Assembly: GCA_046155985.1 (NCBI GenBank) | Contig: JBJXGM010000129.1 | Coordinates: 2,773 to 66,772 of the forward strand | Source of the DNA: Myxococcaceae bacterium | Lineage (GTDB): Bacteria; Myxococcota; Myxococcia; Myxococcales; Myxococcaceae | DNA length: 64,000 bases | Direction: 5' to 3' | Made by a program: the position numbers and the translations under genes | The notes under the pieces: model-generated | Told to the model about the DNA's origin: nothing | Databases searched by the model: none | Seen by the model: only the letters and a program-made list of their open reading frames with translations | Shown: piece by piece, positions 1 through 33,890 of the stretch | Numbering within the stretch: the first letter of the stretch is position 1 | Layout of the letters: each line of letters opens with the position of its first letter

Positions 1-528
1 GACAGCCGACCGACGACGACCCGGTGCTGTCGGCCACTGACCCGCCTGCAGCTCAACAGTTCATTACAGATGATGAGGGGTAAAGTCGCCAGTTCCGGAA
101 CGTGCTGAGGATGCACCTGCTCGTTAAGGCACCATCGAAGAGCGCGTTTCCCCTCGTCTGCATCGATGAGCGTCCGGTACAGCTGCACGACGAAGGTGAG
201 GGAGCCAACGAGCGCGAAGCCTGGGCGGCCAGCACGACGCGATGCGGAATACAAACGAAGAGGCACCGCGAATGTGTTCGCTATTGTCGCCCCACGCCTC
301 GGTTTCCACCTGACGCACGCGACCAAGAACCGGAAGTCGCCGAGCTATGTCAGGGCGCTTCAACGAATCACGAAAGCGTTTCCTAAAGCCAAGAGAATCC
401 ATCTGGTTCAGGACAACCTGAGCAGCCACAGCGAGGCTGCTTGCATCCGAACACTGGGCCCGACCGAGGGCCGAAAGCTGTGGGCACGCTTCATCGTGCA
501 CTTTACGCCAAAGCACGGCAGTTGGCTC
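1..528 (+). pseudogene. IS630-family DDE transposase remnant with an in-frame stop, a frameshift and a 3' truncation
   Basis: Two frames carry IS630-type motifs: FPLVCIDERPVQL (frame of ORF 102..) and EYKRRGTANVF ... IHLVQDNLSSH ... HFTPKHGSWL (frame of ORF 166..). There is a TAA at 81-83 in the upstream frame. The frame switches near 190-200. Homology stops abruptly after GSWL (about 528), where intact family members continue with N-x-AEIE. Confidence 0.8.
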
Positions 529-860
529 GTTATCGCCCCCGTGCGCCCGCCTCCAACGACGTGGCCCCGGCTCGACCGCTGCGGCTCACCGCGTGACGTG
601 CGGGAAAGCCGCGGCTATTCCGCCTATGCGCCGTTGGGAAGTTGTGAAAGTCGCTCGAGGGAGAAGGGGCCCCGAGCGCCGTAGTTGGCGAGGCGCAAGA
701 GGCCTTTTCTGTCGTTTTGGTGGACGCGTGAATTGGCGTGAAACGAGAAGCCTTGGAGGAAGGCAGAGCGCCGGCCGTTGCGGGGAGGCGTCGTAACTTC
801 ACGCCGCCGTGGTCTGAGCGCCTGGTTCAGCGTACGGGTGACGCGGAAGAGTTGCCTTGC

Positions 861-1361: not shown

Positions 1362-1604
1362 TTACTCGCAGAGGAAAACGTCCGAGCAACCCACAGTGGG
1401 CCCGCAGCTGCAAGTGTATGGTACGTCCGTCTGCGCGGGGCAATCACAAGTGCCGCCATTGTTACAGCCAGCCCACGTGGAGTTTCCCGGGCAGCCACCC
1501 CAACGGCCTGCCGTGAGGTTGTTAGCCCCACCCTGTGCGGAGCTCAGGTCAGACAAGTTTTCGATAACGGTTTTCTTTAGCGACAGCTTTGCGCGCTTTT
1601 TCAT
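1362..1604 (-). CDS. lanA: class I lanthipeptide precursor peptide (80 aa) with a double-glycine leader
   Basis: The leader is MKKRAKLSLKKTVIENLSDLSSAQGG. The 54-aa core contains 8 Cys and 9 Ser/Thr (…GGCPGNSTWAGCNNGGTCDCPAQTDVPYTCSCGPTVGCSDVFLCE). AGGAG lies 4 nt before the ATG. The gene is divergent from lanC, and lanB and a C39-ABC exporter are in the same locus. Confidence 0.85.
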   Translation of the reverse strand: MKKRAKLSLKKTVIENLSDLSSAQGGANNLTAGRWGGCPGNSTWAGCNNGGTCDCPAQTDVPYTCSCGPTVGCSDVFLCE

Positions 1605-1649
1605 GTGGCTCCTGAACTTCGGTTGTGTGGTGAAGCGGGGTAGGTCAAC

Positions 1650-1665
1650 AGCAAGTTTCGCACCA
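1650..1665 (-). promoter_or_regulatory. sigma54 (-24/-12) promoter candidate upstream of lanA
   Basis: The minus strand reads TGGTGCGAAACTTGCT against the consensus TGGCACG-N4-TTGCW. The GG and GC dinucleotides are at exactly the canonical spacing and the TTGCT -12 element is intact. The site lies about 45 nt upstream of the lanA ATG (1604). Confidence 0.6.
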
Positions 1666-1758: not shown

Positions 1759-3168
1759 GTGAGCAAGCGCTCCATTGTGTGCGATGGACTGGTTCGCAAA
1801 AGTTGCTTCGCCGCGAGACCCGGTCCATCACCCTTGATTGAGTCTGATTTCCCATCTTCTGCGTTGAGAGGAAGAGCCGTGGTGGACCGACCCGATTGGC
1901 AACCCATCCTCGAGGGCCAAGACGCCGAAAAGGCACAGCGAATCGTCGCCCAAGTGGTCCATGACAGAGACCCCGCCGATTCCATGGCACGACTGGACTC
2001 GTTTGCCGTTTTGCTAGACGCCTACCTCGCCAAAGTGCACTCCTCCGACGAGCGCGCAGACGCGACGTTTGCGCGACTTGAGCGCGTCATCGAACAAGCG
2101 TCGAGGCTTCGATCAAGTGCCCTGTATGGCGGACTCGCGGGCGTGGCGTGGGTGACGGCGCATGTCAATACGCTGCTCAGTGAATGGCTCGATACCGCCT
2201 CTGGCGAAGCTTCAGAGGCGTGGCCCGACGCGCTATTCATCCGGGAGGTTCGAAGCCTCCCTGAGCCCGTCCAGTATGATCTGATTTCGGGGCTGGTCGG
2301 GCTCGCGGTGTACGCGATTGAGCACCTGCCGGCGAAGGAGGCGGAGCAGCTTCTCGGGGGCGTCATCGATCGGCTGCTCGCCAGAAAAGCGGTTCGCATG
2401 CCACACGGCTCGACTTTTCTGACAGAACCTGAGCTGCTTCCGGCACACCAGCGTATTCACGCACCGTCGGGCAATTACAATCTCGGGGTCGCGCACGGCA
2501 TCCCCGCCGTGGTGGTGGTGCTCGCCCATGGGATTCGTCGCGGATACCGCGTCATTGAAGCGCGAGAGCTCGTCGACGCGTTATGGGACTGGATGGTCGC
2601 CCAGCAATGTTCGAGCGGGCCGGGCGCTCGTTTTCCAACGCACGTTGAGATTGACGGGCGTTCGAGCGGACCCGCTCGCGAAGCATGGTGCTACGGAGGA
2701 TTGGGACTTTCTGTCGCGCTGTTGCGCGCGGCGCAGCTGCTCGACGACACGTCCAAGGCGCACGCGGCGGTGGAATTCGCGAAACTCGAAGCCGAGCGGA
2801 GCATCGAGAGCAGCGACTCAAAGGATTGCGGGCTGTGTCACGGCGCGGCGGGGAATGCGCACCTGTTCAACAGGCTCTTCCAAGCGTCTGGAGATGAGAT
2901 TTTTCTTGATGCGGCGCACAGGTGGTTCAACGTGGTGCTTTCGGAACACGGCGTGCGCCCCGGCGTTGGGGGTTACCAGTTTTGGGCTCCGGGCGTCCGG
3001 GGGGGCGGCTGGCCCCCGGCGGGTTGGAGGAGCGACGCCACGTTTCTCGTGGGGTCTTCCGGGGTCGCGCTCGCGTTGCTTGGAGCGACCAGTTCCGTCG
3101 AGCCGAACTGGGATCGGCTTCTTGTTTCGGACCTCAAACGCGGAACCTCATTTCCGCCATTGATCTGA
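1759..3168 (+). CDS. lanC: LanC-like lanthionine cyclase
   Basis: LanC signature residues are present: NLGVAHGIPAVV (His base), AWCYGGLGL (WCxG Zn-Cys) and GLCHGAAGNAH (CHG Zn ligands). The exact start (GTG 1759) is uncertain. Confidence 0.9.
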   Translation: MSKRSIVCDGLVRKSCFAARPGPSPLIESDFPSSALRGRAVVDRPDWQPILEGQDAEKAQRIVAQVVHDRDPADSMARLDSFAVLLDAYLAKVHSSDERADATFARLERVIEQASRLRSSALYGGLAGVAWVTAHVNTLLSEWLDTASGEASEAWPDALFIREVRSLPEPVQYDLISGLVGLAVYAIEHLPAKEAEQLLGGVIDRLLARKAVRMPHGSTFLTEPELLPAHQRIHAPSGNYNLGVAHGIPAVVVVLAHGIRRGYRVIEARELVDALWDWMVAQQCSSGPGARFPTHVEIDGRSSGPAREAWCYGGLGLSVALLRAAQLLDDTSKAHAAVEFAKLEAERSIESSDSKDCGLCHGAAGNAHLFNRLFQASGDEIFLDAAHRWFNVVLSEHGVRPGVGGYQFWAPGVRGGGWPPAGWRSDATFLVGSSGVALALLGATSSVEPNWDRLLVSDLKRGTSFPPLI

Positions 3169-3278
3169 ATGAGCACGGAGTTCGATACCTGGTGCCGCTG
3201 AGCGGCGGGGCGCGGCTCACGGACCCGGGCACCGCTGATACCGCTCGGTTTGGTACCCAACTTGGCCGCTGGTGACAT

Positions 3279-4250
3279 TCAGGTGCAGCCGCGTTGGCGT
3301 GCTGCTTCGATATCGTTCCGTGGCTCGGTAGCCAGCAATGTTCCTAAGACGAACGCCAGCGAGACGCCATGGACCAAAGTTCGTTCGTCGAGGATTCCTC
3401 TGGGACCCTGGAGCTTCACGTGGGCCTCAGCCTCGTGAGGGAAACTGATCTCTGCTCTTCCCCCGTCTCCCGTGGAAAGCTCAAATCGGCGTGGAACGAG
3501 TGTACGGTTAATCACGGTGAACTCGAGCTGGGCGTGGGAGCGTTTCTTGCCCTGTTTGATCTCGAAAGCGACCGGGGCGAAATGTGAAGCACCCAGGTTG
3601 TCATACCTGCTAAGCCGACGTGCGGTAATTGTTGCAAATGGGCCAGTGCCATCCACGATTGTCAGCGTCGCGTCGCAGCCGCTGGCTCGGAGCGTGGCCT
3701 TCGATGCGAGGGTCCCGTCCGGGTTGTAAAGGCTTCCAGTACTGGGTTTGTGTTCCTCGTGAGGGGTGACCAGCTGGTAAGTGCCCGACGCGTCGTTGCC
3801 CTGGGGGAGCACATCCAGCAGCCATTTTGGGGGATGAGTCTGACGGTTTCTTCCTGGGGGCTGCAGCACGCCGTTACCCAGCGCAAAGTGATGGCCGAGG
3901 ACAGGACCGGTGAAGGGGCTGAAACGTTCCTCTGGCACGGCGTCATCGAGTTGACCAAGCGTCGGTCGTTTGTGCGCCGGGCGAGTCCCCGTGAGCTGTG
4001 TAGGGTCCGGGTTCTGAGGTGTGGGCGCAACGGATACGGTCATTGAGTGCTGCGGCAAAGGCGTTCCTGCGACGGCAACCCCACTTTGTCCGGCCGCTTG
4101 AGCGACCGCAGCGGGTGTTGCTGGACCGAACATGCCGAGCCAAGCACTGAAAACGGCGGCACCAATAGCGCGCCCGACAGTGGCGAGCGGTGACCGCGGG
4201 TTGACTGAGACGCCAGTAGCAACCGAACGCGCAAGGGCAGAAGTGACCAT
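3279..4250 (-). CDS. secreted hypothetical protein (323 aa)
   Basis: There is an N-terminal signal-like hydrophobic stretch (AIGAAVFSAWLGMFGPATPAAVAQA), then a Pro-rich linker and a C-terminal beta-rich region. No family was recognised. Confidence 0.55.
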   Translation of the reverse strand: MVTSALARSVATGVSVNPRSPLATVGRAIGAAVFSAWLGMFGPATPAAVAQAAGQSGVAVAGTPLPQHSMTVSVAPTPQNPDPTQLTGTRPAHKRPTLGQLDDAVPEERFSPFTGPVLGHHFALGNGVLQPPGRNRQTHPPKWLLDVLPQGNDASGTYQLVTPHEEHKPSTGSLYNPDGTLASKATLRASGCDATLTIVDGTGPFATITARRLSRYDNLGASHFAPVAFEIKQGKKRSHAQLEFTVINRTLVPRRFELSTGDGGRAEISFPHEAEAHVKLQGPRGILDERTLVHGVSLAFVLGTLLATEPRNDIEAARQRGCT

Positions 4251-4784
4251 GGCAAATGTCTCCCTAAAGACTGCCTGAATTCTCGCGAGTTATCGGAGAA
4301 GGTTGCGTGGTTTCAGGCATGCCTAACCTCGGACCCAGACCTGATTGGTGATGGTGACGGTTGGTAGGGCGGGTCTCGAGGGAGCCCGGGCAGCCCCGAG
4401 CGCCGGCTCAAATTCGCACCTCAGGAAGAAAAACGAGCCCCAAGCCGCGCGCGGAGAGGACTTTTCTGATCCTCCCGCAGAAAACCTCCAAGCCGGTCTT
4501 CGTTTGGTCGCGGAGCCCGGCGGCCTGGAGGTGCCATAGACCTGAGTAATGACGGGCGAAAGAGATCGGCGCCGGGGCATCGCGCAGACGGATGTCGGTG
4601 ACGCCGATTTCGTCGTGCGCCCGTACCGTTGGTGCCGACCTGTTCGGCACGACCGTGGCTTGGCTGATCCCTCTCCTCGCGTGCGCAGACCTGCGGCTGG
4701 ACCGATTTTCCGCGAATTCAGGCTGTTAGTGTTCTGGCATTTACTCCATTTTACTCATGTGTGAATTGGAGTAGAGTCCATTTT

Positions 4785-5915
4785 ATGGACAGGTCGATTC
4801 AGCCCGTTTTGGAGCAGGTTCTGGCGTCGCAAAAGATGGTTTTTATCGCGGGGCCTCGGCAAGTTGGGAAAACAACCCTGGCGCTGTCGTTGTTGGGGCA
4901 GGGGGCAACCGAGTCCAACCCTGCGTATCTCAGCTGGGATGACCCCAGGGGTGCCGCGCGTCTCCGCCAAGCCCAGCTTCCCCCCAACGCACCACGGCTC
5001 GTGTTCGACGAAATCCACAAATACGCAAGGTGGAGAAACCTGCTCAAGGGGATTTTCGACACCGAAAAGTCCTTGCGGCAAATCATCGTCACCGGTTCGG
5101 CGCGCTTGGATTTCTATCGAAAAGGGGGCGACTCCTTGGTGGGGCGCTACCGCCTCTTCCGGCTGCACCCTTTTTCTCTACAAGAAATCGGTGGGAGCGC
5201 ACGCTCAGATCTCGCTGCTCTGTTGCGCTTTGGGGGCTTTCCGGAACCCTTTCTTCGGGCGAACGAGACAGAACATCGCATCTGGCAACGAGACCGACTT
5301 TCCCGTGTTGTTCGCGAGGATCTGCGCGACCTCGAACGTGTGCGCGAAATCAGTCTTGTCGAGCAGCTTGTCGATCTCTTGCCAGCTCGGGTGGGATCCC
5401 CCCTCTCCATCGCGAATCTTCGCGGGGACCTGGAGGTGGACCACAAGACAGTTCAGCGCTGGTTACAGATACTCGAGAACTTGTATGTGTGCTTCCGCAT
5501 TCCGCCGTTTGGCGCGCCTCGAATTCGCGCGGTGAAGAAAGAGCAGAAGCTGTACCTCTGGGATTGGTCGCAAGTGGAAGACCCCGGCCCACGTTTCGAA
5601 AACCTGGTCGCCAGCCAACTGCTCAAGTACTGCCATTTCCTCGAGGACACGCAGGGCGTGCGAATGGAGCTCCGCTTCCTGCGAGACACGGACAAGCGCG
5701 AAGTCGACTTCGTCGTTCTCAAGGACCGAAAGCCCCAATTCGCAGTCGAGTGCAAGAGTGGAGACCGAGAGGTTGGCTCTGCTGTGAAGTACTTTGCCGC
5801 GCGGACCGGCATCCCACGGTTTTTTCAGGTGCACCAGGGCGTTCGACACTTTGCACAGGGCGCTGTCACGGTTGTGCCGTTTGCGCGCTTTTGCGCCGAG
5901 ATGAAGATGCCGTAA
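4785..5915 (+). CDS. AAA+ ATPase of the AAA_14/DUF4143 type (COG1373-like)
   Basis: Walker A is GPRQVGKTTLA and Walker B-like is LVFDEIHKY, followed by IIVTGSARLD. The C-terminal part is typical of DUF4143 proteins. The ATG at 4785 is preferred over the GTG at 4761. The upstream region is AT-rich. Confidence 0.8.
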   Translation: MDRSIQPVLEQVLASQKMVFIAGPRQVGKTTLALSLLGQGATESNPAYLSWDDPRGAARLRQAQLPPNAPRLVFDEIHKYARWRNLLKGIFDTEKSLRQIIVTGSARLDFYRKGGDSLVGRYRLFRLHPFSLQEIGGSARSDLAALLRFGGFPEPFLRANETEHRIWQRDRLSRVVREDLRDLERVREISLVEQLVDLLPARVGSPLSIANLRGDLEVDHKTVQRWLQILENLYVCFRIPPFGAPRIRAVKKEQKLYLWDWSQVEDPGPRFENLVASQLLKYCHFLEDTQGVRMELRFLRDTDKREVDFVVLKDRKPQFAVECKSGDREVGSAVKYFAARTGIPRFFQVHQGVRHFAQGAVTVVPFARFCAEMKMP

Positions 5916-6050
5916 TGCGTAGAAACCTGGACCAGGGTCGCACAGGTCGATCACCACACGCGCATCGACACTGAAGCGACCGGTGTTTAGGGCATTGGCC
6001 GCAAGCAGGTGGAGATGCCTAGGATTCTCGTTCTCCGCGCAGCTTGACCT

Positions 6051-6079
6051 CCATATATATAGCATGCCATATATATGGC
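6051..6079. promoter_or_regulatory. AT-rich repeat/palindrome, a putative vapBC operator-promoter
   Basis: CCATATATAT occurs twice (6051-6060 and 6067-6076). The second copy sits inside the perfect palindrome GCCATATATATGGC (6066-6079), which abuts the vapB ATG (6080). TTGACC lies just upstream at 6045-6050. Confidence 0.5.
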
Positions 6080-6307
6080 ATGGCGCGTAAAACCACGCTG
6101 TACTTGGGGGACGACGAATCCACCCTCCTCAAGCAAGCGTCGGAGCAAGAAGGCTTATCCCAAGGCGTCATCATTACCCGGGCTCTTCGCAGTTACTTTC
6201 AATCGCGCTCGCGGAAAGCGCTGAGCGTTGGACTCGGACGAAGCGGGCGGCGCAATCTCAGCGAGCGTGCGGAGGCGTTGCTCAAAGGCCTTGGAGAGGA
6301 CGGGTGA
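6080..6307 (+). CDS. vapB: ribbon-helix-helix (CopG/VapB-type) antitoxin
   Basis: The N-terminus MARKTTLYLGDDESTLLKQASEQEGLSQGVIITRALRSYF is RHH-like. There is a 4-nt overlap with the downstream PIN gene. Confidence 0.8.
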   Translation: MARKTTLYLGDDESTLLKQASEQEGLSQGVIITRALRSYFQSRSRKALSVGLGRSGRRNLSERAEALLKGLGEDG

Positions 6308-6726
6308 TTGTTGTCGACACGAGCGGGCTCATTGCTCTGCTCGACGCCGACGACGCCCACCATGATGGCGTGCGCGAAGCTTTCGACGCTGCGGGAGACG
6401 CCTGGGTTCTACCGTGGGCGATCCTTCCGGAGGTGGACTACCTCGCGACCAAATACCTTGGACCCAAAGTCGCCCTCGCGTTCTTGCGTGACGTTGTGCG
6501 CGGCGTTTTTCGCGTGACCGGTTACGACGCCGACGACATGAAGCGCTCCGTCGGCCTTCAGCAAAAGTATGCGAGCCTGGAGCTCGGCCTTGTTGATTCG
6601 GTTGTCATGGCCCAGGCGATGCGCTTCAAGGCAAAGGCAATCGTCACGCTGGATAGAAGGCATTTTCGCGCCGTATCGTTCGGTGGCAGTCCCCCACCGC
6701 GGCTGATTCCCTTGGACAGTCCCTAG
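6304..6726 (+). CDS. vapC: PIN-domain ribonuclease toxin VapC
   Basis: The N-terminus MIVVDTSGLIALLDADDAHH carries the PIN acidic residues (D5, E at LPEVDY, D at LVDSVVM, D at TLDRRHF). Confidence 0.9.
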   Translation: MIVVDTSGLIALLDADDAHHDGVREAFDAAGDAWVLPWAILPEVDYLATKYLGPKVALAFLRDVVRGVFRVTGYDADDMKRSVGLQQKYASLELGLVDSVVMAQAMRFKAKAIVTLDRRHFRAVSFGGSPPPRLIPLDSP

Positions 6727-6967
6727 CGCGAGAAACACGGCCCCCGGCGGCGGGGGGCCGGGGGTGCGCTTGATCGTCCATCCAGACGTCGACATTTGTT
6801 GGGCTGCTGCCGAGCGGCACGAGCCTACGCAACATGATCGACCAATCGACCAGACGCCTCGGCACTGCGGCAAGTGGTTTGGACGCCCATGTGAGCTTGG
6901 GCTTATCCGCGATGGCGAATCCCATTCCCATCAGCCCCAGAAACGCCCGTCTTGCGAGGATCTTCAT
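6644..6967 (-). CDS. small ORF with a twin-arginine-like signal peptide, possibly a truncated remnant
   Basis: It starts MKILARRAFLGLMGMGFA, which fits the RRxFL Tat motif. Its ATG overlaps the PPTase stop (ATGA at 6964-6967). Its 3' end runs antisense into vapC, so the gene may be disrupted. Confidence 0.3.
   Translation of the reverse strand: MKILARRAFLGLMGMGFAIADKPKLTWASKPLAAVPRRLVDWSIMLRRLVPLGSSPTNVDVWMDDQAHPRPPAAGGRVSRARDCPRESAAVGDCHRTIRRENAFYPA
6738..6760. terminator. GC-rich hairpin downstream of vapC
   Basis: The stem is CGGCCCCC (6738-6745) paired with GGGGGCCG (6753-6760), with a 7-nt loop. There is no clear U-tract, so terminator function is uncertain. Confidence 0.3.
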
Positions 6968-7713
6968 CGCTCCCCCACGAGCCGGTACTCCGAGCAGCGG
7001 ACGGTAACTGGGGAGTGAGCCGGACGACGTATTGCCACCGCTGCGAGGTGTCTGTGCGATGGCGCGAGTTGGACAAACTGCCAGCTTTCCGGGGTGTCGT
7101 CGGAGGGTTGCTCGAAGGAGATTCGCGGTGCGTGTGGCGGCGCGAGGCGGAATGCGAAACGGGTGAGCGGTAGGGATAGGCCAACGCCTCTCGCCTTGAC
7201 GTAGGCCTCCTTGAGTGTCCAGTACTCAAAGAAGCGCCGGCGTTGGCGCGGGCCAGAGAGGCGGTTGAGATCGGCGACTTCCTCTGCCGTGAAGCACTGA
7301 TCAACAACGTCAGTTGGGGCGCTTCGCTGGGCGTACTCTTCAACGTCCACACCCACGTCGATGTCCATCGCCACCGCACACAGCGCCATTCCGTCGGTGT
7401 GCGACAGATTGAATCGCAGTTTCGGCCCGGCCTGGCCCGGCACCTCAGGCCGGCCGTGCTCGCCTCGATGGAAGACCCAATCCTGGGCCCTCACGGGCCC
7501 ATAGCGAGACAGCGTGAGCCGCAGCAGTGCATGAGACAGGAGGAACTCCCGGCGGTGTCGCTCTGCTCGGAAACCGCTGTGCCGCGCTCTTTCGTCCTCG
7601 TCGAGGAGCGTCCAGAGATACGTCAGGACATCAGGATGAATCGAGCGGTCTAGCCGAAGAAACCAGGCGTGCACCTCGCGCCCAGGCAAGGGAAGCGGTG
7701 GCGCAGGCATCAT
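6964..7713 (-). CDS. Sfp-type 4'-phosphopantetheinyl transferase
   Basis: Motifs FNLSHTDGMALCAVA, DVGVDVE and WTLKEAYVKARG are present. The gene is divergent from the megasynthase gene. Confidence 0.9.
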   Translation of the reverse strand: MMPAPPLPLPGREVHAWFLRLDRSIHPDVLTYLWTLLDEDERARHSGFRAERHRREFLLSHALLRLTLSRYGPVRAQDWVFHRGEHGRPEVPGQAGPKLRFNLSHTDGMALCAVAMDIDVGVDVEEYAQRSAPTDVVDQCFTAEEVADLNRLSGPRQRRRFFEYWTLKEAYVKARGVGLSLPLTRFAFRLAPPHAPRISFEQPSDDTPESWQFVQLAPSHRHLAAVAIRRPAHSPVTVRCSEYRLVGER

Positions 7714-8010
7714 CGCTAACGAATACTACTCCTGCACGGGTCGTCGCCCACCGCAAAACATACGCACGGGATGAGGGCGTCGCATCGACGTGGGTTGTTC
7801 GCACCTTGTGCGCCCCCCCGAGACCGACATCGACGCACCCAAGCCTCGCGCGGGCCACCCAAAGCGCGTGCTGGTCAGTTCACTCGCAGAAGAAGACGTC
7901 GGAGCAGCCCTGTCGTACCTTGCTTCTGTGGTTGCTGGATTTGGCCAGAGATCCGCCGAAAGCCGGGCAGGCCATGGGATGGGCGCGAGAGAGACGTAGA
8001 GGCGGAACCG

Positions 8011-25803: not shown

Positions 25804-26910
25804 ATGGAACTGCGCATCGCCGTCGACGAACTCAAGAAAGCCCTCTATCGCGCGCAGGGCATCGTCGAGCGCAAGACGACGATGCCCATCCTCGCCAACG
25901 TGCTGCTTTCGGCCACTAAAACCGGCCTCACGCTGACAGCTTTCGATCTCGATATTGGTTTGGTGAGTGAACACAACGCCGAAGTGACAAAACCAGGCGC
26001 TGTCACCGTTCCGGCAAAATACCTTTTCGACATCGTTCAAAGTCTTTCGGACGCGCACCTCACCCTGCGGCGGTTGCCCAACCACCACATTGAAATCGAG
26101 AGTGGAAAGTCTCATTTCCGTTTGGTTGGACTCACGGCCGATGACTACCCAAAGCTTCCGCAAGCCGAGAGCGCCAGCTGGGTGCCTGTGTCGGGGCCGA
26201 CACTGCTCGAGATGGTGAAGAAAACCCAATACGCCATCTCCACCGATGAAACGCGCTACATTCTAAACGGCGTATTTTTCGAGTCAGGCGCGGGTCAAAA
26301 GTCGCGCATGGTGGCCACCGACGGGCACAGGCTGTGTTTGGTCGAGCGTGACCTGCCTGGCGATTTCAAACTCAAATCCGGCGTCATTTTGCCGCGCAAA
26401 GGGCTTCTGGAATTGCGCCGGCTCATTGACGAGGCCCCCGAAGCCGCCTGTCAGTTGGGATTTGCCGAAGGCTCGGCCCTGTTTCGAAAGCCTGGCCTCA
26501 CGATGGTGATGCGTCTCATTGATGGCCAGTTTCCCGAGTACCAAAGGGTCATTCCCAAAGAGGGCGAAAAGAAAGTGCAGTTACCGCGTTCACGGTTGCT
26601 CGACGCCCTTAAACGCGCGTCCTTGCTGTCCGCAGACAAGTCCAACGCCGTCAAAGTGACGTTGCTCGAGAACACGCTTCGCATCACGTCGCAGAATCCT
26701 GATTTGGGCGAGGCGAAGGAAGACATTGAGGTCAAGTACAAGGGCGGTGACCTCACCATCGGGTTTAACGCGCGCTACATCATCGACGTTTTAGGCGCCT
26801 TGGATACCGAGCAAGTCGTATTTGAATTGGGCGATGAACACAGCCCTGGCGTGTTGCACGCGCCAGACGACCGCAGCTACCTCGCTGTGGTCATGCCGAT
26901 GCGCGTCTGA
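25804..26910 (+). CDS. dnaN: DNA polymerase III beta sliding clamp
   Basis: The protein is 368 aa. It reads MELRIAVDELKKALYRAQGIVERKTTMPILANVLL … DGHRL … LIDGQFPEYQRVIP … MPMRV. Confidence 0.97.
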   Translation: MELRIAVDELKKALYRAQGIVERKTTMPILANVLLSATKTGLTLTAFDLDIGLVSEHNAEVTKPGAVTVPAKYLFDIVQSLSDAHLTLRRLPNHHIEIESGKSHFRLVGLTADDYPKLPQAESASWVPVSGPTLLEMVKKTQYAISTDETRYILNGVFFESGAGQKSRMVATDGHRLCLVERDLPGDFKLKSGVILPRKGLLELRRLIDEAPEAACQLGFAEGSALFRKPGLTMVMRLIDGQFPEYQRVIPKEGEKKVQLPRSRLLDALKRASLLSADKSNAVKVTLLENTLRITSQNPDLGEAKEDIEVKYKGGDLTIGFNARYIIDVLGALDTEQVVFELGDEHSPGVLHAPDDRSYLAVVMPMRV

Positions 26911-26913
26911 CCC

Positions 26914-27741
26914 ATGACCCTGCTCACGCTGCTGTGCGTCAGCCTGCTGTCGCAAACCGCTGCGGAGACAGAGGCCCAAGCAAAACTTTTGGTCGCCGAC
27001 TTGGCAGCGCAAGGCGTGGCGGATGCCGAAGCCGCAGCGATGACGGATGCCGTCGTCACCACGCTTCAGGAACGCGGCATGTTTCGCGTGCTTTCCAGCA
27101 AAGATGTTCAAACCATTCTCGGGGCTGAACGCCGAAGGCAGTTGGGCGGTGGGTGTGCACCCGGGAAAGACTGCGCTGCAGATTTGGGCACAGCCCTGGG
27201 CGCTCGATTTGTCCTGACAGGTGCGCTGGCGCAGATTGGCGGCACATACCAACTCACGCTGCAAGTCGTCGACACCGTCCGCAGCGAAAGACTCGGCCAA
27301 TCGAGTCGGTTGGCAAAAGAACTGACGACACTGCGCCTCTTGATGCCTTACGCAGTGGCCGAAGCGACCGGTTCTCCCCTGCCCCCGCCGCCCTCGCGTG
27401 TGTGGCAATACACTGCGATTTCAGCGGGGGCGGGCGCGGTCGTTGCCGGCGGGGTGCTGGGGATGCTGGCCCTCACGCGGCAGCGCGTCTTGAATGACGA
27501 GCTGTGTCCTTCGGGTGTTGTCAGTGGGGCGTGCAGTGGGGTGAATCTTCGCCCGCTCAGCTACTACCAAGGCGAGCAGTCGGGCATCGGCCGAGACAAA
27601 ACCATTGCGTTGGCGATGATGGCTGCTGGCGCTGGGCTGGTCGCTGTCGGTCTCATTTTTATGCCCCCGCCCGAAGGTGGCCCGCGTGTTGCGCTGTCGG
27701 TGACGGGCCAAGGCGCTGCGGTGGCGGGCGAGTTCTGGTAG
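26914..27741 (+). CDS. hypothetical exported/membrane protein inserted between dnaN and recF
   Basis: There is a signal peptide (MTLLTLLCVSLLSQTAA), a globular domain and two C-terminal hydrophobic segments. No confident family was recognised. Confidence 0.6.
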   Translation: MTLLTLLCVSLLSQTAAETEAQAKLLVADLAAQGVADAEAAAMTDAVVTTLQERGMFRVLSSKDVQTILGAERRRQLGGGCAPGKDCAADLGTALGARFVLTGALAQIGGTYQLTLQVVDTVRSERLGQSSRLAKELTTLRLLMPYAVAEATGSPLPPPPSRVWQYTAISAGAGAVVAGGVLGMLALTRQRVLNDELCPSGVVSGACSGVNLRPLSYYQGEQSGIGRDKTIALAMMAAGAGLVAVGLIFMPPPEGGPRVALSVTGQGAAVAGEFW

Positions 27742-27753
27742 CGAGGCCAGGCC

Positions 27754-28887
27754 GTGCAGCTCTTGTCGCTTGGGGTTCGTGACTTTCGCAACTTAAGGCA
27801 AGTTCGATTTGAACCCTCCGCCCGCGCGAGTGTCATCGTGGGGCCCAACGGCCAGGGAAAGACGAATCTGCTCGAGGCACTCTATTTCTTGGCGACGCTC
27901 AAGGCCCTTCGTGCGCGCCGGCTCGCCGAGTTGGTTCGTCTGGGCGAGTCTGCCGCGCGTGTGGCAGCTCAGTTTTTGCTGGGTGGGGCCACGCGGGAAA
28001 TCGCCGTCGACATTCAACCGCCCTCACGAAAAGCATCCGTCGACGGCAAGCGCGCGGCGACGCTCGAAGACTACTTTGGTGGCGTTTCCGTGGTGTCATT
28101 CACGCCAGATGATTTGGACATCGTCAAAGGCTCGCCGGAGCAGCGTCGGCACTTTTTGGACCGCGCTGTTTTCAACCGCTGGCCCGCGTTTCTGCACGAA
28201 GGCCGCACTTATGCGCGGGCGGTGAAAGCCCGAAACCGGTTGCTCAAAGAAAATGCGCCCAACGAATACGTTTCTGCCTACGACCAGGCGCTCGCTCAGG
28301 CGGGGGCTCGGGTCTGGGTCAGGCGGCGCGAGCTGCTTTCCGAAATGGCGGGACCGACCGCACAGCGCTTCTCGGATATCGGTCGTTGCAAGGACCCCGC
28401 CCGTTTCACTTACGCCGCGCCGGACTTGGGCGTGGAATTCGCGAACACAAACGAAAGCGGGCTGACTGAGGCGTTTATCCAAGTTTTGAAGACGCAGCTT
28501 CCACGAGACCGAGAGCGAGGCTTCACCTCACTTGGACCCCACAGCGACGACGTCGACATCCATTTGGGTGAACACCCGGCCCGTGCTTTCGCCAGCCAAG
28601 GTCAACAGCGCGCGTTGGTGTTGGCTTGGAAAATTGCTGAACTCAATCGACTAACGGAAGTCCTGGGACGGGTGCCGATGCTCTTGTTGGACGATGTTTC
28701 GAGCGAGCTCGACCCCGAACGCAACGCGTTCCTGATGGATTGCATTTCACAAACGGCGGGCCAAGTGGTGATGACCACCACCGATGCGAATCTGGTGCGT
28801 GCCGTGTCGGCGTCCGACACGCGATGGTTTCGAATGGCCCAGGGCGAGCTTTTGCCGTGGTCGGACCGGCCCGCCTCAGCGGCGTGA
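27754..28887 (+). CDS. recF: DNA replication and repair protein RecF
   Basis: Motifs are FRNL…VIVGPNGQGKTNLLEALYFL (Walker A), the signature-like SQGQQRALVLAWKIAE and LLLDDVSSELD (Walker B). Confidence 0.95.
   Translation: MQLLSLGVRDFRNLRQVRFEPSARASVIVGPNGQGKTNLLEALYFLATLKALRARRLAELVRLGESAARVAAQFLLGGATREIAVDIQPPSRKASVDGKRAATLEDYFGGVSVVSFTPDDLDIVKGSPEQRRHFLDRAVFNRWPAFLHEGRTYARAVKARNRLLKENAPNEYVSAYDQALAQAGARVWVRRRELLSEMAGPTAQRFSDIGRCKDPARFTYAAPDLGVEFANTNESGLTEAFIQVLKTQLPRDRERGFTSLGPHSDDVDIHLGEHPARAFASQGQQRALVLAWKIAELNRLTEVLGRVPMLLLDDVSSELDPERNAFLMDCISQTAGQVVMTTTDANLVRAVSASDTRWFRMAQGELLPWSDRPASAA

Positions 28888-29645: not shown

Positions 29646-33890
<4,245 letters not shown>

What the first reader, a model, noticed from the sequence alone, without database searches (positions are those of the whole stretch)
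1362..1604. Unusually Cys-dense 54-aa lanthipeptide core behind a double-glycine leader
The translation is MKKRAKLSLKKTVIENLSDLSSAQGG / ANNLTAGRWGGCPGNSTWAGCNNGGTCDCPAQTDVPYTCSCGPTVGCSDVFLCE.

- The leader ends in a GG preceded by spaced hydrophobic residues (L17, L20, A23). That fits cleavage by the catalytic-Cys-containing C39 domain of the adjacent ABC transporter.
- The predicted core has 8 Cys and 9 Ser/Thr, which allows up to 8 thioether rings.
- The core contains no Lys.
- It ends in Cys-Glu, so a LanD-type C-terminal decarboxylation is unlikely. No LanD gene is present.
- A second internal GG (RWGG/C) gives an alternative cleavage site.
- Only one precursor gene was found.
Basis: seen in the sequence. 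Interest (0 to 1): 0.7.

Follow-up and report, generated by a model that had tools for sequence, protein, structure and literature searches.

The report
Unannotated class I lanthipeptide precursor gene
The small gene is real and very probably encodes the precursor of a ring-forming (lanthipeptide) peptide, but it is an ordinary member of an already described group whose members are routinely this rich in cysteine.

Summary
The 80-codon ORF exists exactly as translated, but on the minus strand (1604 to 1362). It has an AGGAG ribosome-binding site 4 nt before the ATG. It lies divergently, 277 nt away, from an intact LanC cyclase gene.

Its leader matches the published class I motif LxLxKx5L followed by GG. 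A leader profile built only from foreign precursors finds it at E=4e-5 among 825 small window ORFs, and finds nothing else.

A full LanB, a C39 peptidase-ABC exporter with the Q-x5-C motif, and a GAF-domain membrane-fusion protein are present. An orphan PKS and mobile-type genes lie in between.

The claim "unusually Cys-dense" does not hold within the family. In 43 related cores the median Cys fraction is 0.158, against 0.148 here, and 11 of 43 have 8 or more Cys.

The core sequence itself has no detectable homologue. No member from Myxococcota or Acidobacteriota turned up as characterised in the papers I searched.

Verdict: a correctly spotted precursor that is not on record as a called gene in the collection searched, and a new member of a known kind. 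Interest is modest. The only speculative twist is possible lipidation by the co-directional PKS, and the evidence leans against it.

The parts
1362..1604 (-). lanA: 80-aa class I lanthipeptide precursor (ATG at 1604, TAA stop at 1362-1364)
   Evidence: Translation. Foreign-leader HMM E=4e-5, the only hit in the window. No gene with this product is on record in the collection searched.
1527..1604 (-). Leader peptide, residues 1-26: MKKRAKLSLKKTVIENLSDLSSAQGG. It carries LxLxKx5L (L7, L9, K11, L17) and the GG cleavage motif at residues 25-26.
   Evidence: Sequence. Motif as defined in PMC7268733. Aligns to family leaders. Weak sub-threshold hit to NCBIfam NF038153 lant_leader_L1a, 15.3 bits against a cutoff of 22.
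1365..1526 (-). Predicted core, 54 aa, with 8 Cys and 9 Ser/Thr. Every Cys can be paired with a distinct upstream Ser/Thr.
   Evidence: Counts. Matching test. No sequence homologue.
1609..1613 (-). Shine-Dalgarno AGGAG, 4 nt before the ATG
   Evidence: Read directly from the sequence.
1650..1665 (-). Candidate sigma-54 -24/-12 element TGGTGCGAAACTTGCT, 45 nt upstream of the ATG (tentative)
   Evidence: Matches 10 of 12 consensus positions with GG and GC in place. A hit this good occurs in about 0.7% of random 200-nt segments. Not enriched window-wide and not conserved in the family.
1882..3168 (+). lanC cyclase, 428 aa (GTG start as in the public protein P0001), divergent from lanA
   Evidence: Pfam LANC_like 6.3e-32. 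100% identical to 'MAG Myxococcaceae bacterium lanthionine synthetase C family protein'. H205, W269-C270 and C319-H320 are invariant. Matches PDB NisC and 8byk.
15857..17440 (+). GAF-domain, HlyD-like membrane-fusion protein; probable export partner of LanT
   Evidence: Pfam GAF. 30% identity over 514 aa to the gene preceding LanT in L001. Homologues in 11 related loci. The relatives' products carry barrel-sandwich hybrid families. Start codon inferred.
17421..19640 (+). lanT: C39 peptidase-ABC exporter (PCAT type)
   Evidence: Pfam Peptidase_C39, ABC_membrane and ABC_tran. NHLM_micro_ABC1-like, 600 bits. QLTGTEC, HFVV and IVDP motifs present. Full-length match to PCAT1 and ComA.
19637..22885 (+). 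lanB: full-length dehydratase, 1082 aa
   Evidence: Lant_dehydr_N 5.8e-160 and Lant_dehydr_C 2e-61. Matches PDB MibB and NisB.
22882..23823 (+). Sigma-54 enhancer-binding protein without an N-terminal sensory domain. Its start overlaps the lanB stop. Candidate regulator.
   Evidence: Sigma54_activat 7.4e-64, matched from residue 1, plus HTH_8. EBP homologues lie within 10 kb of LanC in 12 related loci and beside the cluster of P0013.

Best explanation
The ORF at 1604 to 1362 (minus strand) is the structural gene (lanA) of a class I lanthipeptide in a Myxococcaceae genome.

Proposed mechanism:
1. The 26-residue leader carries the LxLxKx5L...GG motif and docks the peptide onto LanB.
2. LanB glutamylates Ser/Thr of the 54-residue core using Glu-tRNA and eliminates glutamate, giving Dha/Dhb.
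3. The zinc enzyme LanC, encoded next door, adds the eight Cys thiols to these residues, giving up to eight (methyl)lanthionine rings.
4. The C39 domain of the ABC exporter cuts after Gly26 and the transporter exports the core. The GAF-domain membrane-fusion protein probably acts with it, as expected for a diderm.
5. Expression may depend on sigma-54 through the enhancer-binding protein encoded just after lanB.

Shown here: the gene, the leader family membership, and the presence and intact motifs of LanC, LanB and the C39-ABC protein.

Inferred: the actual dehydration and cyclisation, the ring number, the cleavage site, the role of the fusion protein, and the sigma-54 control.
For: - Exact translation, strand and start.
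- The leader HMM from 26 foreign precursors hits only this ORF in the window, at E=4e-5.
- The leader matches the class I LxLxKx5L/GG motif described in PMC7268733.
- Related LanC loci carry similar small genes directly beside LanC or LanB. These are L001, L002, L082, L083 and many of the 79 genome loci. They share the same leader and have Cys/Ser/Thr-rich cores.
- In 43 of 43 related cores Ser+Thr is at least equal to Cys.
- In 39 of 42 cores every Cys can take a distinct upstream Ser/Thr. Residue-shuffled cores give 16.4 +/- 3.0, and 0 of 2000 shuffles reach 39. The window core passes.
- LanC keeps the His and Cys-Cys-His positions.
- LanB is full length with both domains.
- The C39 domain keeps Q-x5-C, His and Asp.
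- The synteny MFP(GAF)-LanT-LanB recurs in L001, L083 and the P0013 contig.
Against: - The cluster is split. lanA and lanC are separated from MFP-lanT-lanB by about 12.7 kb (3169-15856), which holds an unknown secreted protein, an AAA_14/DUF4143 ATPase, a PIN toxin, a PPTase and a PKS. A transposase fragment lies beside lanA. The system could therefore be a rearranged remnant.
- The leader is a divergent family member: KTVIEN replaces KETLRN and there is a 2-residue deletion. It scores below the NCBIfam cutoff, 15.3 against 22 bits.
- The core has no homologue anywhere, so conservation of the peptide itself cannot be shown.
- No expression or chemical data exist.
Confidence: 0.78

Rival explanations
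1. The peptide is a hybrid lipolanthipeptide. The FAAL-ACP-KS-AT-KR-ACP-(C/E-like) synthase, encoded directly upstream of and co-directional with MFP-lanT-lanB, builds a 3-hydroxy-acyl chain. Its terminal condensation-type domain transfers that chain onto the modified peptide.
For: - The PKS stop (15813) lies only 43 nt from the MFP start (15857), with no terminator-like site. The following genes overlap one another, which suggests one operon.
- A PPTase gene lies next to the PKS.
- An AMP-binding gene lies beside the related cluster of P0013.
- PKS or FAS genes have been noted in some lanthipeptide clusters of all classes (PMC7268733).
Against: - None of 83 related LanC loci has a PKS within 10 kb.
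- No protein with this architecture was found.
- The two closest relatives with a condensation-family domain whose context I examined are followed by NRPS genes, so they look like loading modules of ordinary PKS-NRPS lines.
- The terminal domain resembles epimerisation domains and reads HRLVSDQ where HHxxxDG is expected. The catalytic second His is therefore missing.
- The core has no Lys, and its N-terminus is only freed at export.
Confidence: 0.07
2. The cluster is a decayed or rearranged remnant. The ORF is intact by chance of recent history, but no mature lanthipeptide is made because lanA and lanC were separated from lanB and lanT.
For: A DDE transposase fragment lies at 166-684. A PIN toxin, an AAA_14/DUF4143 gene and an orphan PKS lie between the two halves. 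In relatives the genes are contiguous.
Against: lanA, lanC, lanT and lanB are all full-length with catalytic motifs. lanA keeps a strong ribosome-binding site. Separation by about 14 kb on one chromosome does not prevent function.
Confidence: 0.1
3. The peptide is an unmodified or disulfide-bonded double-glycine bacteriocin. The C39 transporter exports it, and the Cys residues form disulfides rather than thioethers.
For: GG leaders and C39 exporters also serve unmodified bacteriocins (established knowledge). An even number of Cys (8) would allow four disulfides.
Against: The gene sits beside lanC. The same leader family is found beside LanB and LanC throughout. The ordering of Ser/Thr before Cys is strongly non-random across the family.
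Confidence: 0.05

Closest known systems
Class I lanthipeptide precursors with the LxLxKx5L leader ending in Gly-Gly, with a C39 protease-exporter in the cluster (Walker et al. 2020, PMC7268733; described there for Bacteroidetes)
   Same: Exact LxLxKx5L spacing (L7, L9, K11, L17). [quoted passage not shown] Separate LanB and LanC. A C39-ABC protein in the cluster.
   Different: The host is a Myxococcaceae MAG. The leader is two residues shorter between the motif and the GG. The core is longer (54 aa) and richer in Cys than the characterised examples. The cluster is split.
Characterised double-glycine class I lanthipeptides from Gram-negative bacteria: pinensins, Ped15.1/15.2, thalassomonasins A/B and viridisins VdsA1/A2 (PMC9680876)
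   Same: LanB and LanC act on precursors with double-glycine leaders. In the viridisin study all Cys were engaged in thioethers.
   Different: I found no detectable sequence similarity of the core to anything. I did not align LanB or LanC of those systems with the window's enzymes.
NCBIfam NF038153 lant_leader_L1a (class I lanthipeptide leader domain)
   Same: It is the only family in NCBIfam that the peptide touches; residues 1-19 align to model positions 1-23.
   Different: The score of 15.3 bits is below the curated cutoff of 22.
Uncharacterised Cys-rich precursors beside LanC in Thermoanaerobaculia/Acidobacteriota, Gemmatimonadota and Myxococcota
   Same: Same leader type. Same neighbours (LanC, LanB, C39-ABC, GAF-MFP, often a sigma-54 EBP). 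Comparable core length and Cys content. L083's cores also end in Cys-Glu.
   Different: The cores are hypervariable. The nearest LanC is only 48% identical.
Lipolanthines, goadvionins and lipoavitides (RiPP-fatty acid/PKS hybrids)
   Same: A lanthipeptide-type gene set is combined with a fatty-acyl or PKS enzyme.
   Different: From my own knowledge, those systems use class III-type synthetases, a LanD-type decarboxylase (avionin) and a dedicated acyltransferase. None of these is present here.

Membership tests
Class I lanthipeptide precursor with LxLxKx5L / GG leader | Leader contains LxLxKx5L | tested here: met
   KLSLKKTVIENL: L7-x-L9-x-K11-x5-L17 (motif from PMC7268733).
Class I lanthipeptide precursor with LxLxKx5L / GG leader | Leader ends in Gly-Gly at the position conserved in the family | tested here: met
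   G25-G26 align with the family's GG. A23 and L20 occupy positions -4 and -7.
Class I lanthipeptide precursor with LxLxKx5L / GG leader | Curated profile score (NCBIfam NF038153) at or above the cutoff | tested here: not met
   15.3 bits against a cutoff of 22, E=0.017.
Class I lanthipeptide system | Separate full-length LanB with a glutamylation domain and an elimination domain | tested here: met
   Lant_dehydr_N 534 bits and Lant_dehydr_C 209 bits. Matches MibB and NisB.
Class I lanthipeptide system | LanC cyclase with zinc ligands (Cys, Cys-His) and the catalytic His | tested here: met
   H205, C270, C319 and H320 are invariant in 22 relatives including the window protein. WCYG and CHG align with a solved LanC-like structure.
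Class I lanthipeptide system | Core has Cys plus Ser/Thr placed so that thioether rings can form | tested here: met
   8 Cys and 9 Ser/Thr, with a complete N-to-C matching possible.
Class I lanthipeptide system | Dehydration and cyclisation of the peptide actually occur | not testable with these tools
   Needs co-expression and mass spectrometry.
Peptidase-containing ABC transporter (PCAT / LanT with C39 domain) | N-terminal C39 domain with catalytic Cys (Q-x5-C), His and Asp, followed by a transmembrane domain and a nucleotide-binding domain | tested here: met
   PQLTGTECG, RHFVV and IVDP motifs. Pfam domains. Full-length match to PCAT1 and ComA.
Lipolanthine-type RiPP/PKS hybrids | LanD-type decarboxylase, class III synthetase and a dedicated acyltransferase | tested here: not met
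   None was found among the ORFs of the window that I scanned. The PKS terminal domain lacks the catalytic His.

The most novel reading that the evidence does not exclude
The orphan FAAL-ACP-KS-AT-KR-ACP-(C/E-like) synthase appears to be co-transcribed with MFP-lanT-lanB. It might lipidate this class I lanthipeptide, for example through an ester on a Ser/Thr or a transfer that needs the unusual HRxxxDQ domain. If so, this would be a class I lipolanthipeptide made by direct PKS-to-RiPP transfer. I know of no characterised example; co-occurrence of PKS/FAS genes with class I clusters has only been noted bioinformatically (PMC7268733).
Probability: 0.07. Interest if true: 0.75.

Novelty: new member of a known kind. 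Interest (0 to 1): 0.3.

Why it matters
It adds a precursor gene that is not on record as a called gene in the collection searched to a Myxococcaceae class I lanthipeptide cluster.

It also shows that a large, uncharacterised clade of Cys-rich class I lanthipeptides shares one leader type and one export module: a C39-ABC protein plus a GAF-domain fusion protein. This clade lies mostly in Acidobacteriota, with a few members in Myxococcota.

If all eight Cys are bridged, the product would be a very heavily cross-linked 54-residue lanthipeptide and a reasonable target for heterologous expression.

It does not change how lanthipeptide biosynthesis is understood.

Tried and rejected
- A word-indexed search of the precursor against 5.8 billion proteins found nothing. 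Exhaustive phmmer against 1.84 billion representatives also found nothing. The core is therefore an orphan at sequence level. Family membership could only be shown through the leader and the genomic context.
- Exact-sequence look-ups of the precursor and of the 428-aa LanC found no contig on record.
- A metagenome scan with LanB as a single query gave no confirmed relative.
- I tested whether sigma-54 promoters are a family feature upstream of precursors. They are not: only the window's precursor reaches 10 of 12. At 2 mismatches the motif is not enriched in the window (9 found, 14.6 expected).
- I tested whether the PKS is a conserved partner of this lanthipeptide clade. It is not.
- I considered the overlapping plus-strand ORF 1330-1704 as the real gene. 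I rejected it: it has no family hit, and the minus-strand ORF has the leader match and the ribosome-binding site.
- I considered the second GG (RWGG) as the cleavage site. I rejected it as the primary site because the family alignment places the conserved GG at 25-26, and positions -4 and -7 of the second site are Arg and Thr.
- I looked for further precursors with a leader HMM, a regular expression and a Cys-count filter. None was found.

Full report
**Observation**

The coordinates 1362-1604 hold an 80-codon ORF on the minus strand. The ORF starts with ATG at 1604 and ends with TAA at 1362-1364.

Reading the minus strand upstream shows AGGAG four bases before the ATG. GC at third codon positions is 0.67, close to the 0.68-0.72 of the window's confirmed genes. 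The predicted core has 54 residues with 8 Cys, 3 Ser, 6 Thr and no Lys.

**Surroundings**

Pfam and NCBIfam scans give the following layout.

| Coordinates | Strand | Gene or feature |
|---|---|---|
| 166-684 | + | DDE transposase fragment |
| 1362-1604 | - | the candidate precursor |
| 1882-3168 | + | LanC cyclase, divergent, 277 nt from the precursor's ATG |
| 3279-4250 | - | unknown 323-aa protein |
| 4761-5915 | + | AAA_14/DUF4143 ATPase |
| 6304-6726 | + | PIN-domain protein |
| 6964-7713 | - | 4'-phosphopantetheinyl transferase |
| 8011-15813 | + | synthase of about 2600 aa: FAAL-ACP-KS-AT-KR-ACP-condensation-like |
| 15857-17440 | + | GAF-domain protein |
| 17421-19640 | + | C39 peptidase-ABC transporter |
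| 19637-22885 | + | full-length LanB |
| 22882-23823 | + | sigma-54 enhancer-binding protein |
| 23981-25495 | - | Ser/Thr kinase |
| 25804 onward | + | dnaN, recF and gyrB |

The transporter is therefore about 15.8 kb from the precursor, not adjacent. LanC is the neighbour. The LanC protein is 100% identical to a public protein named 'MAG: lanthionine synthetase C family protein [Myxococcaceae bacterium]' from a 70.6-kb contig. No gene with the precursor's product is on record in the collection searched.

**Are the enzymes intact?**

- *LanC.* An alignment of LanC with 21 relatives keeps H205, W269-C270 and C319-H320 invariant. By my knowledge of NisC, these are the acid/base His and the zinc-ligand positions. 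The WCYG and CHG motifs align with a solved LanC-like structure and with NisC.
- *LanB.* It has both the glutamylation and the elimination domains and matches MibB and NisB.
- *C39 domain.* It reads PQLTGTECG...RHFVV...IVDP, that is Q-x5-C plus the His and Asp motifs. The whole protein matches PCAT1 and ComA over its full length.

**Related sequences**

The peptide has no homologue by word-indexed search or by exhaustive phmmer over 1.84 billion representatives. The context of the closest LanC relatives is more informative.

- L001 (LanC 45% identical) has GAF protein-LanT-LanB-S51 peptidase-LanC. It then has an uncalled 67-aa ORF, MKKKKKKLDLSTETLRNIAVNSVAGG / TEYTDTRCWTMGSACYCNPTGISDCCSNDCTVGCSEPQYCG.
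- L002 has three LanC genes and three such peptides.
- L083 has two 84-aa precursors whose 56-residue cores carry 10 Cys and end in ...HPCE, like the window's ...FLCE.
- A scan of one genome per species with the LanC alignment returned 79 loci. Most are from Thermoanaerobaculia and other Acidobacteriota, with a few from Gemmatimonadota and Myxococcota. Dozens of them carry small ORFs with the same leader.

A profile built from 26 of these foreign leaders, with the window excluded, finds the window ORF at E=4e-5 among 825 small ORFs of the window. Nothing else scores below E=1. This also confirms that there is only one precursor in the window.

**Comparison with the literature**

Walker et al. 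2020 (PMC7268733) state three things: a number of class I LanAs carry LxLxKx5L instead of FxLD; many of these leaders end in Gly-Gly; and a C39 protease is often encoded in the cluster. The window leader fits this spacing exactly, with L7, L9, K11 and L17 followed by G25-G26.

Characterised double-glycine class I lanthipeptides from Gram-negative bacteria include pinensins, Ped15.1/15.2, thalassomonasins and viridisins (PMC9680876). Lanthipeptides are described as barely explored in myxobacteria, and a sigma-54 regulator was noted in another myxobacterial class I cluster (PMC11876861). NCBIfam's leader model NF038153 touches the peptide only below its cutoff, at 15.3 against 22 bits.

**Is it unusually Cys-dense?**

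No. Among 43 distinct cores behind this leader type, the median is 35 residues with 6 Cys, a Cys fraction of 0.158. The window's fraction is 0.148. Eleven of the 43 cores have 8 or more Cys, and the maximum is 19 Cys in 90 residues. The core is long and Cys-rich compared with textbook lanthipeptides, but it is typical of its own clade.

**Evidence that the Cys make thioethers**

In all 43 cores Ser+Thr is at least equal to Cys. In 39 of 42 cores every Cys can be matched to a distinct Ser/Thr lying N-terminal to it. Residue-shuffled cores give 16.4 +/- 3.0, and none of 2000 shuffles reaches 39. The window core passes this test, whereas 20% of its own shuffles would. One possible pairing, for illustration only, is T5-C12, S16-C21, T17-C27, T26-C29, T33-C39, T38-C41, T44-C47 and S48-C53.

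**Cleavage site**

The family alignment puts the conserved GG at residues 25-26, with Ala at -4 and Leu at -7. The second GG (RWGG) lies inside the core and would have Arg at -4 and Thr at -7. The first GG is therefore the likely site. No LanD-type flavoprotein, LanP-type subtilisin or LanFEG-type transporter was seen among the ORFs I scanned.

**Mechanism**

The statement below is inferred from the established class I pathway. LanB dehydrates Ser/Thr through Glu-tRNA-dependent glutamylation and elimination. LanC cyclises the peptide. The PCAT-type exporter removes the leader after Gly26 and exports the product.

The GAF-domain protein is 30% identical over 514 residues to the gene preceding LanT in L001. 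It has homologues in 11 related loci, and its relatives carry barrel-sandwich hybrid domains of membrane-fusion proteins. It is therefore probably the periplasmic adaptor of the exporter.

**Regulation (tentative)**

TGGTGCGAAACTTGCT at 1650-1665 on the minus strand lies 45 nt upstream of the ATG. It matches the sigma-54 -24/-12 consensus at 10 of 12 positions. About 0.7% of random 200-nt segments reach that score. The motif is not enriched across the window and is absent upstream of the other family precursors. An enhancer-binding protein without a sensory domain is encoded immediately after lanB.

**The PKS**

Its stop codon is 43 nt from the start of the fusion-protein gene, with no terminator-like site, so co-transcription is plausible. 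The other evidence points against a functional link:

- None of 83 related loci has a PKS near LanC.
- No protein with the same architecture was found.
- The two relatives with a condensation-family domain that I examined are followed by NRPS genes, so they look like loading modules of PKS-NRPS lines.
- The terminal domain resembles epimerisation domains and has HRLVSDQ in place of HHxxxDG.

I therefore treat the PKS as an orphan neighbour, probably brought in by rearrangement. I give the lipolanthipeptide reading about 7%.

**Verdict**

The finding is a new member of a known kind. Interest is 0.3.

Noticed in passing
window 8011-15813 (+), with the PPTase gene at 6964-7713 (-): An orphan FAAL-ACP-KS-AT-KR-ACP synthase ends in a condensation/epimerisation-like domain that reads HRLVSDQ instead of HHxxxDG. 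No NRPS follows it. It stops 43 nt before the GAF-MFP gene of the lanthipeptide export operon. The two relatives I examined (L084, L085) are followed by NRPS genes.
   Followed up: partly
window 1650-1665 (-) and 22882-23823 (+): A sigma-54-like -24/-12 element lies 45 nt upstream of the precursor's ATG. A sigma-54 enhancer-binding protein that lacks any N-terminal sensory domain has a start overlapping the lanB stop. EBP homologues occur near LanC in 12 related loci, but the promoter motif is not conserved there.
   Followed up: partly
window 15857-17440 (+); L001 2271-3782; L083 3800-5359; L002 12912-15026: A membrane-fusion (HlyD-like) protein with a cytoplasmic GAF domain is conserved next to the C39-ABC exporter in this lanthipeptide clade. 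What the GAF domain senses is unknown.
   Followed up: partly
window 29733-33890 (+): gyrB is interrupted by an intein with a LAGLIDADG endonuclease domain, giving a 1385-aa ORF. Pfam reports Intein_splicing and LAGLIDADG_3 between the Toprim and GyrB insert domains.
   Followed up: no
window 23981-28887: dnaN (25804-26910) and recF (27754-28887) are present without dnaA upstream. A Ser/Thr kinase on the opposite strand and the lanthipeptide/PKS genes occupy that side instead.
   Followed up: no
window 166-684, 4761-5915, 6044-6726: A DDE_3 transposase fragment lies beside lanA. An AAA_14/DUF4143 ATPase and a PIN-domain toxin with a small upstream ORF lie between lanC and the PKS. This suggests that the split of the cluster arose by rearrangement or insertion.
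   Followed up: no
window 3279-4250 (-): A 323-aa ORF with a hydrophobic, signal-like N-terminus lies next to lanC. It has no Pfam or NCBIfam family and no relative in any of the 83 related loci.
   Followed up: partly
L083 6251-9601: In a related soil-metagenome cluster, genes of the PGA_cap (CapA-like), Mur-ligase (CapB-like) and NlpC/P60 families sit between the two precursors and LanC-LanB. This hints at a poly-gamma-glutamate-type tailoring step. A CapK-like gene was also reported in the Aetherobacter class I cluster (PMC11876861).
   Followed up: no
L001 9315-10019: A Peptidase_S51 gene is inserted between LanB and LanC in the closest syntenic relative. The window has no counterpart.
   Followed up: no
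L027 9545-9904 (+): A precursor with the same leader type has a 90-residue core carrying 19 Cys and 24 Ser/Thr. This is far denser in absolute numbers than the window's peptide.
   Followed up: no
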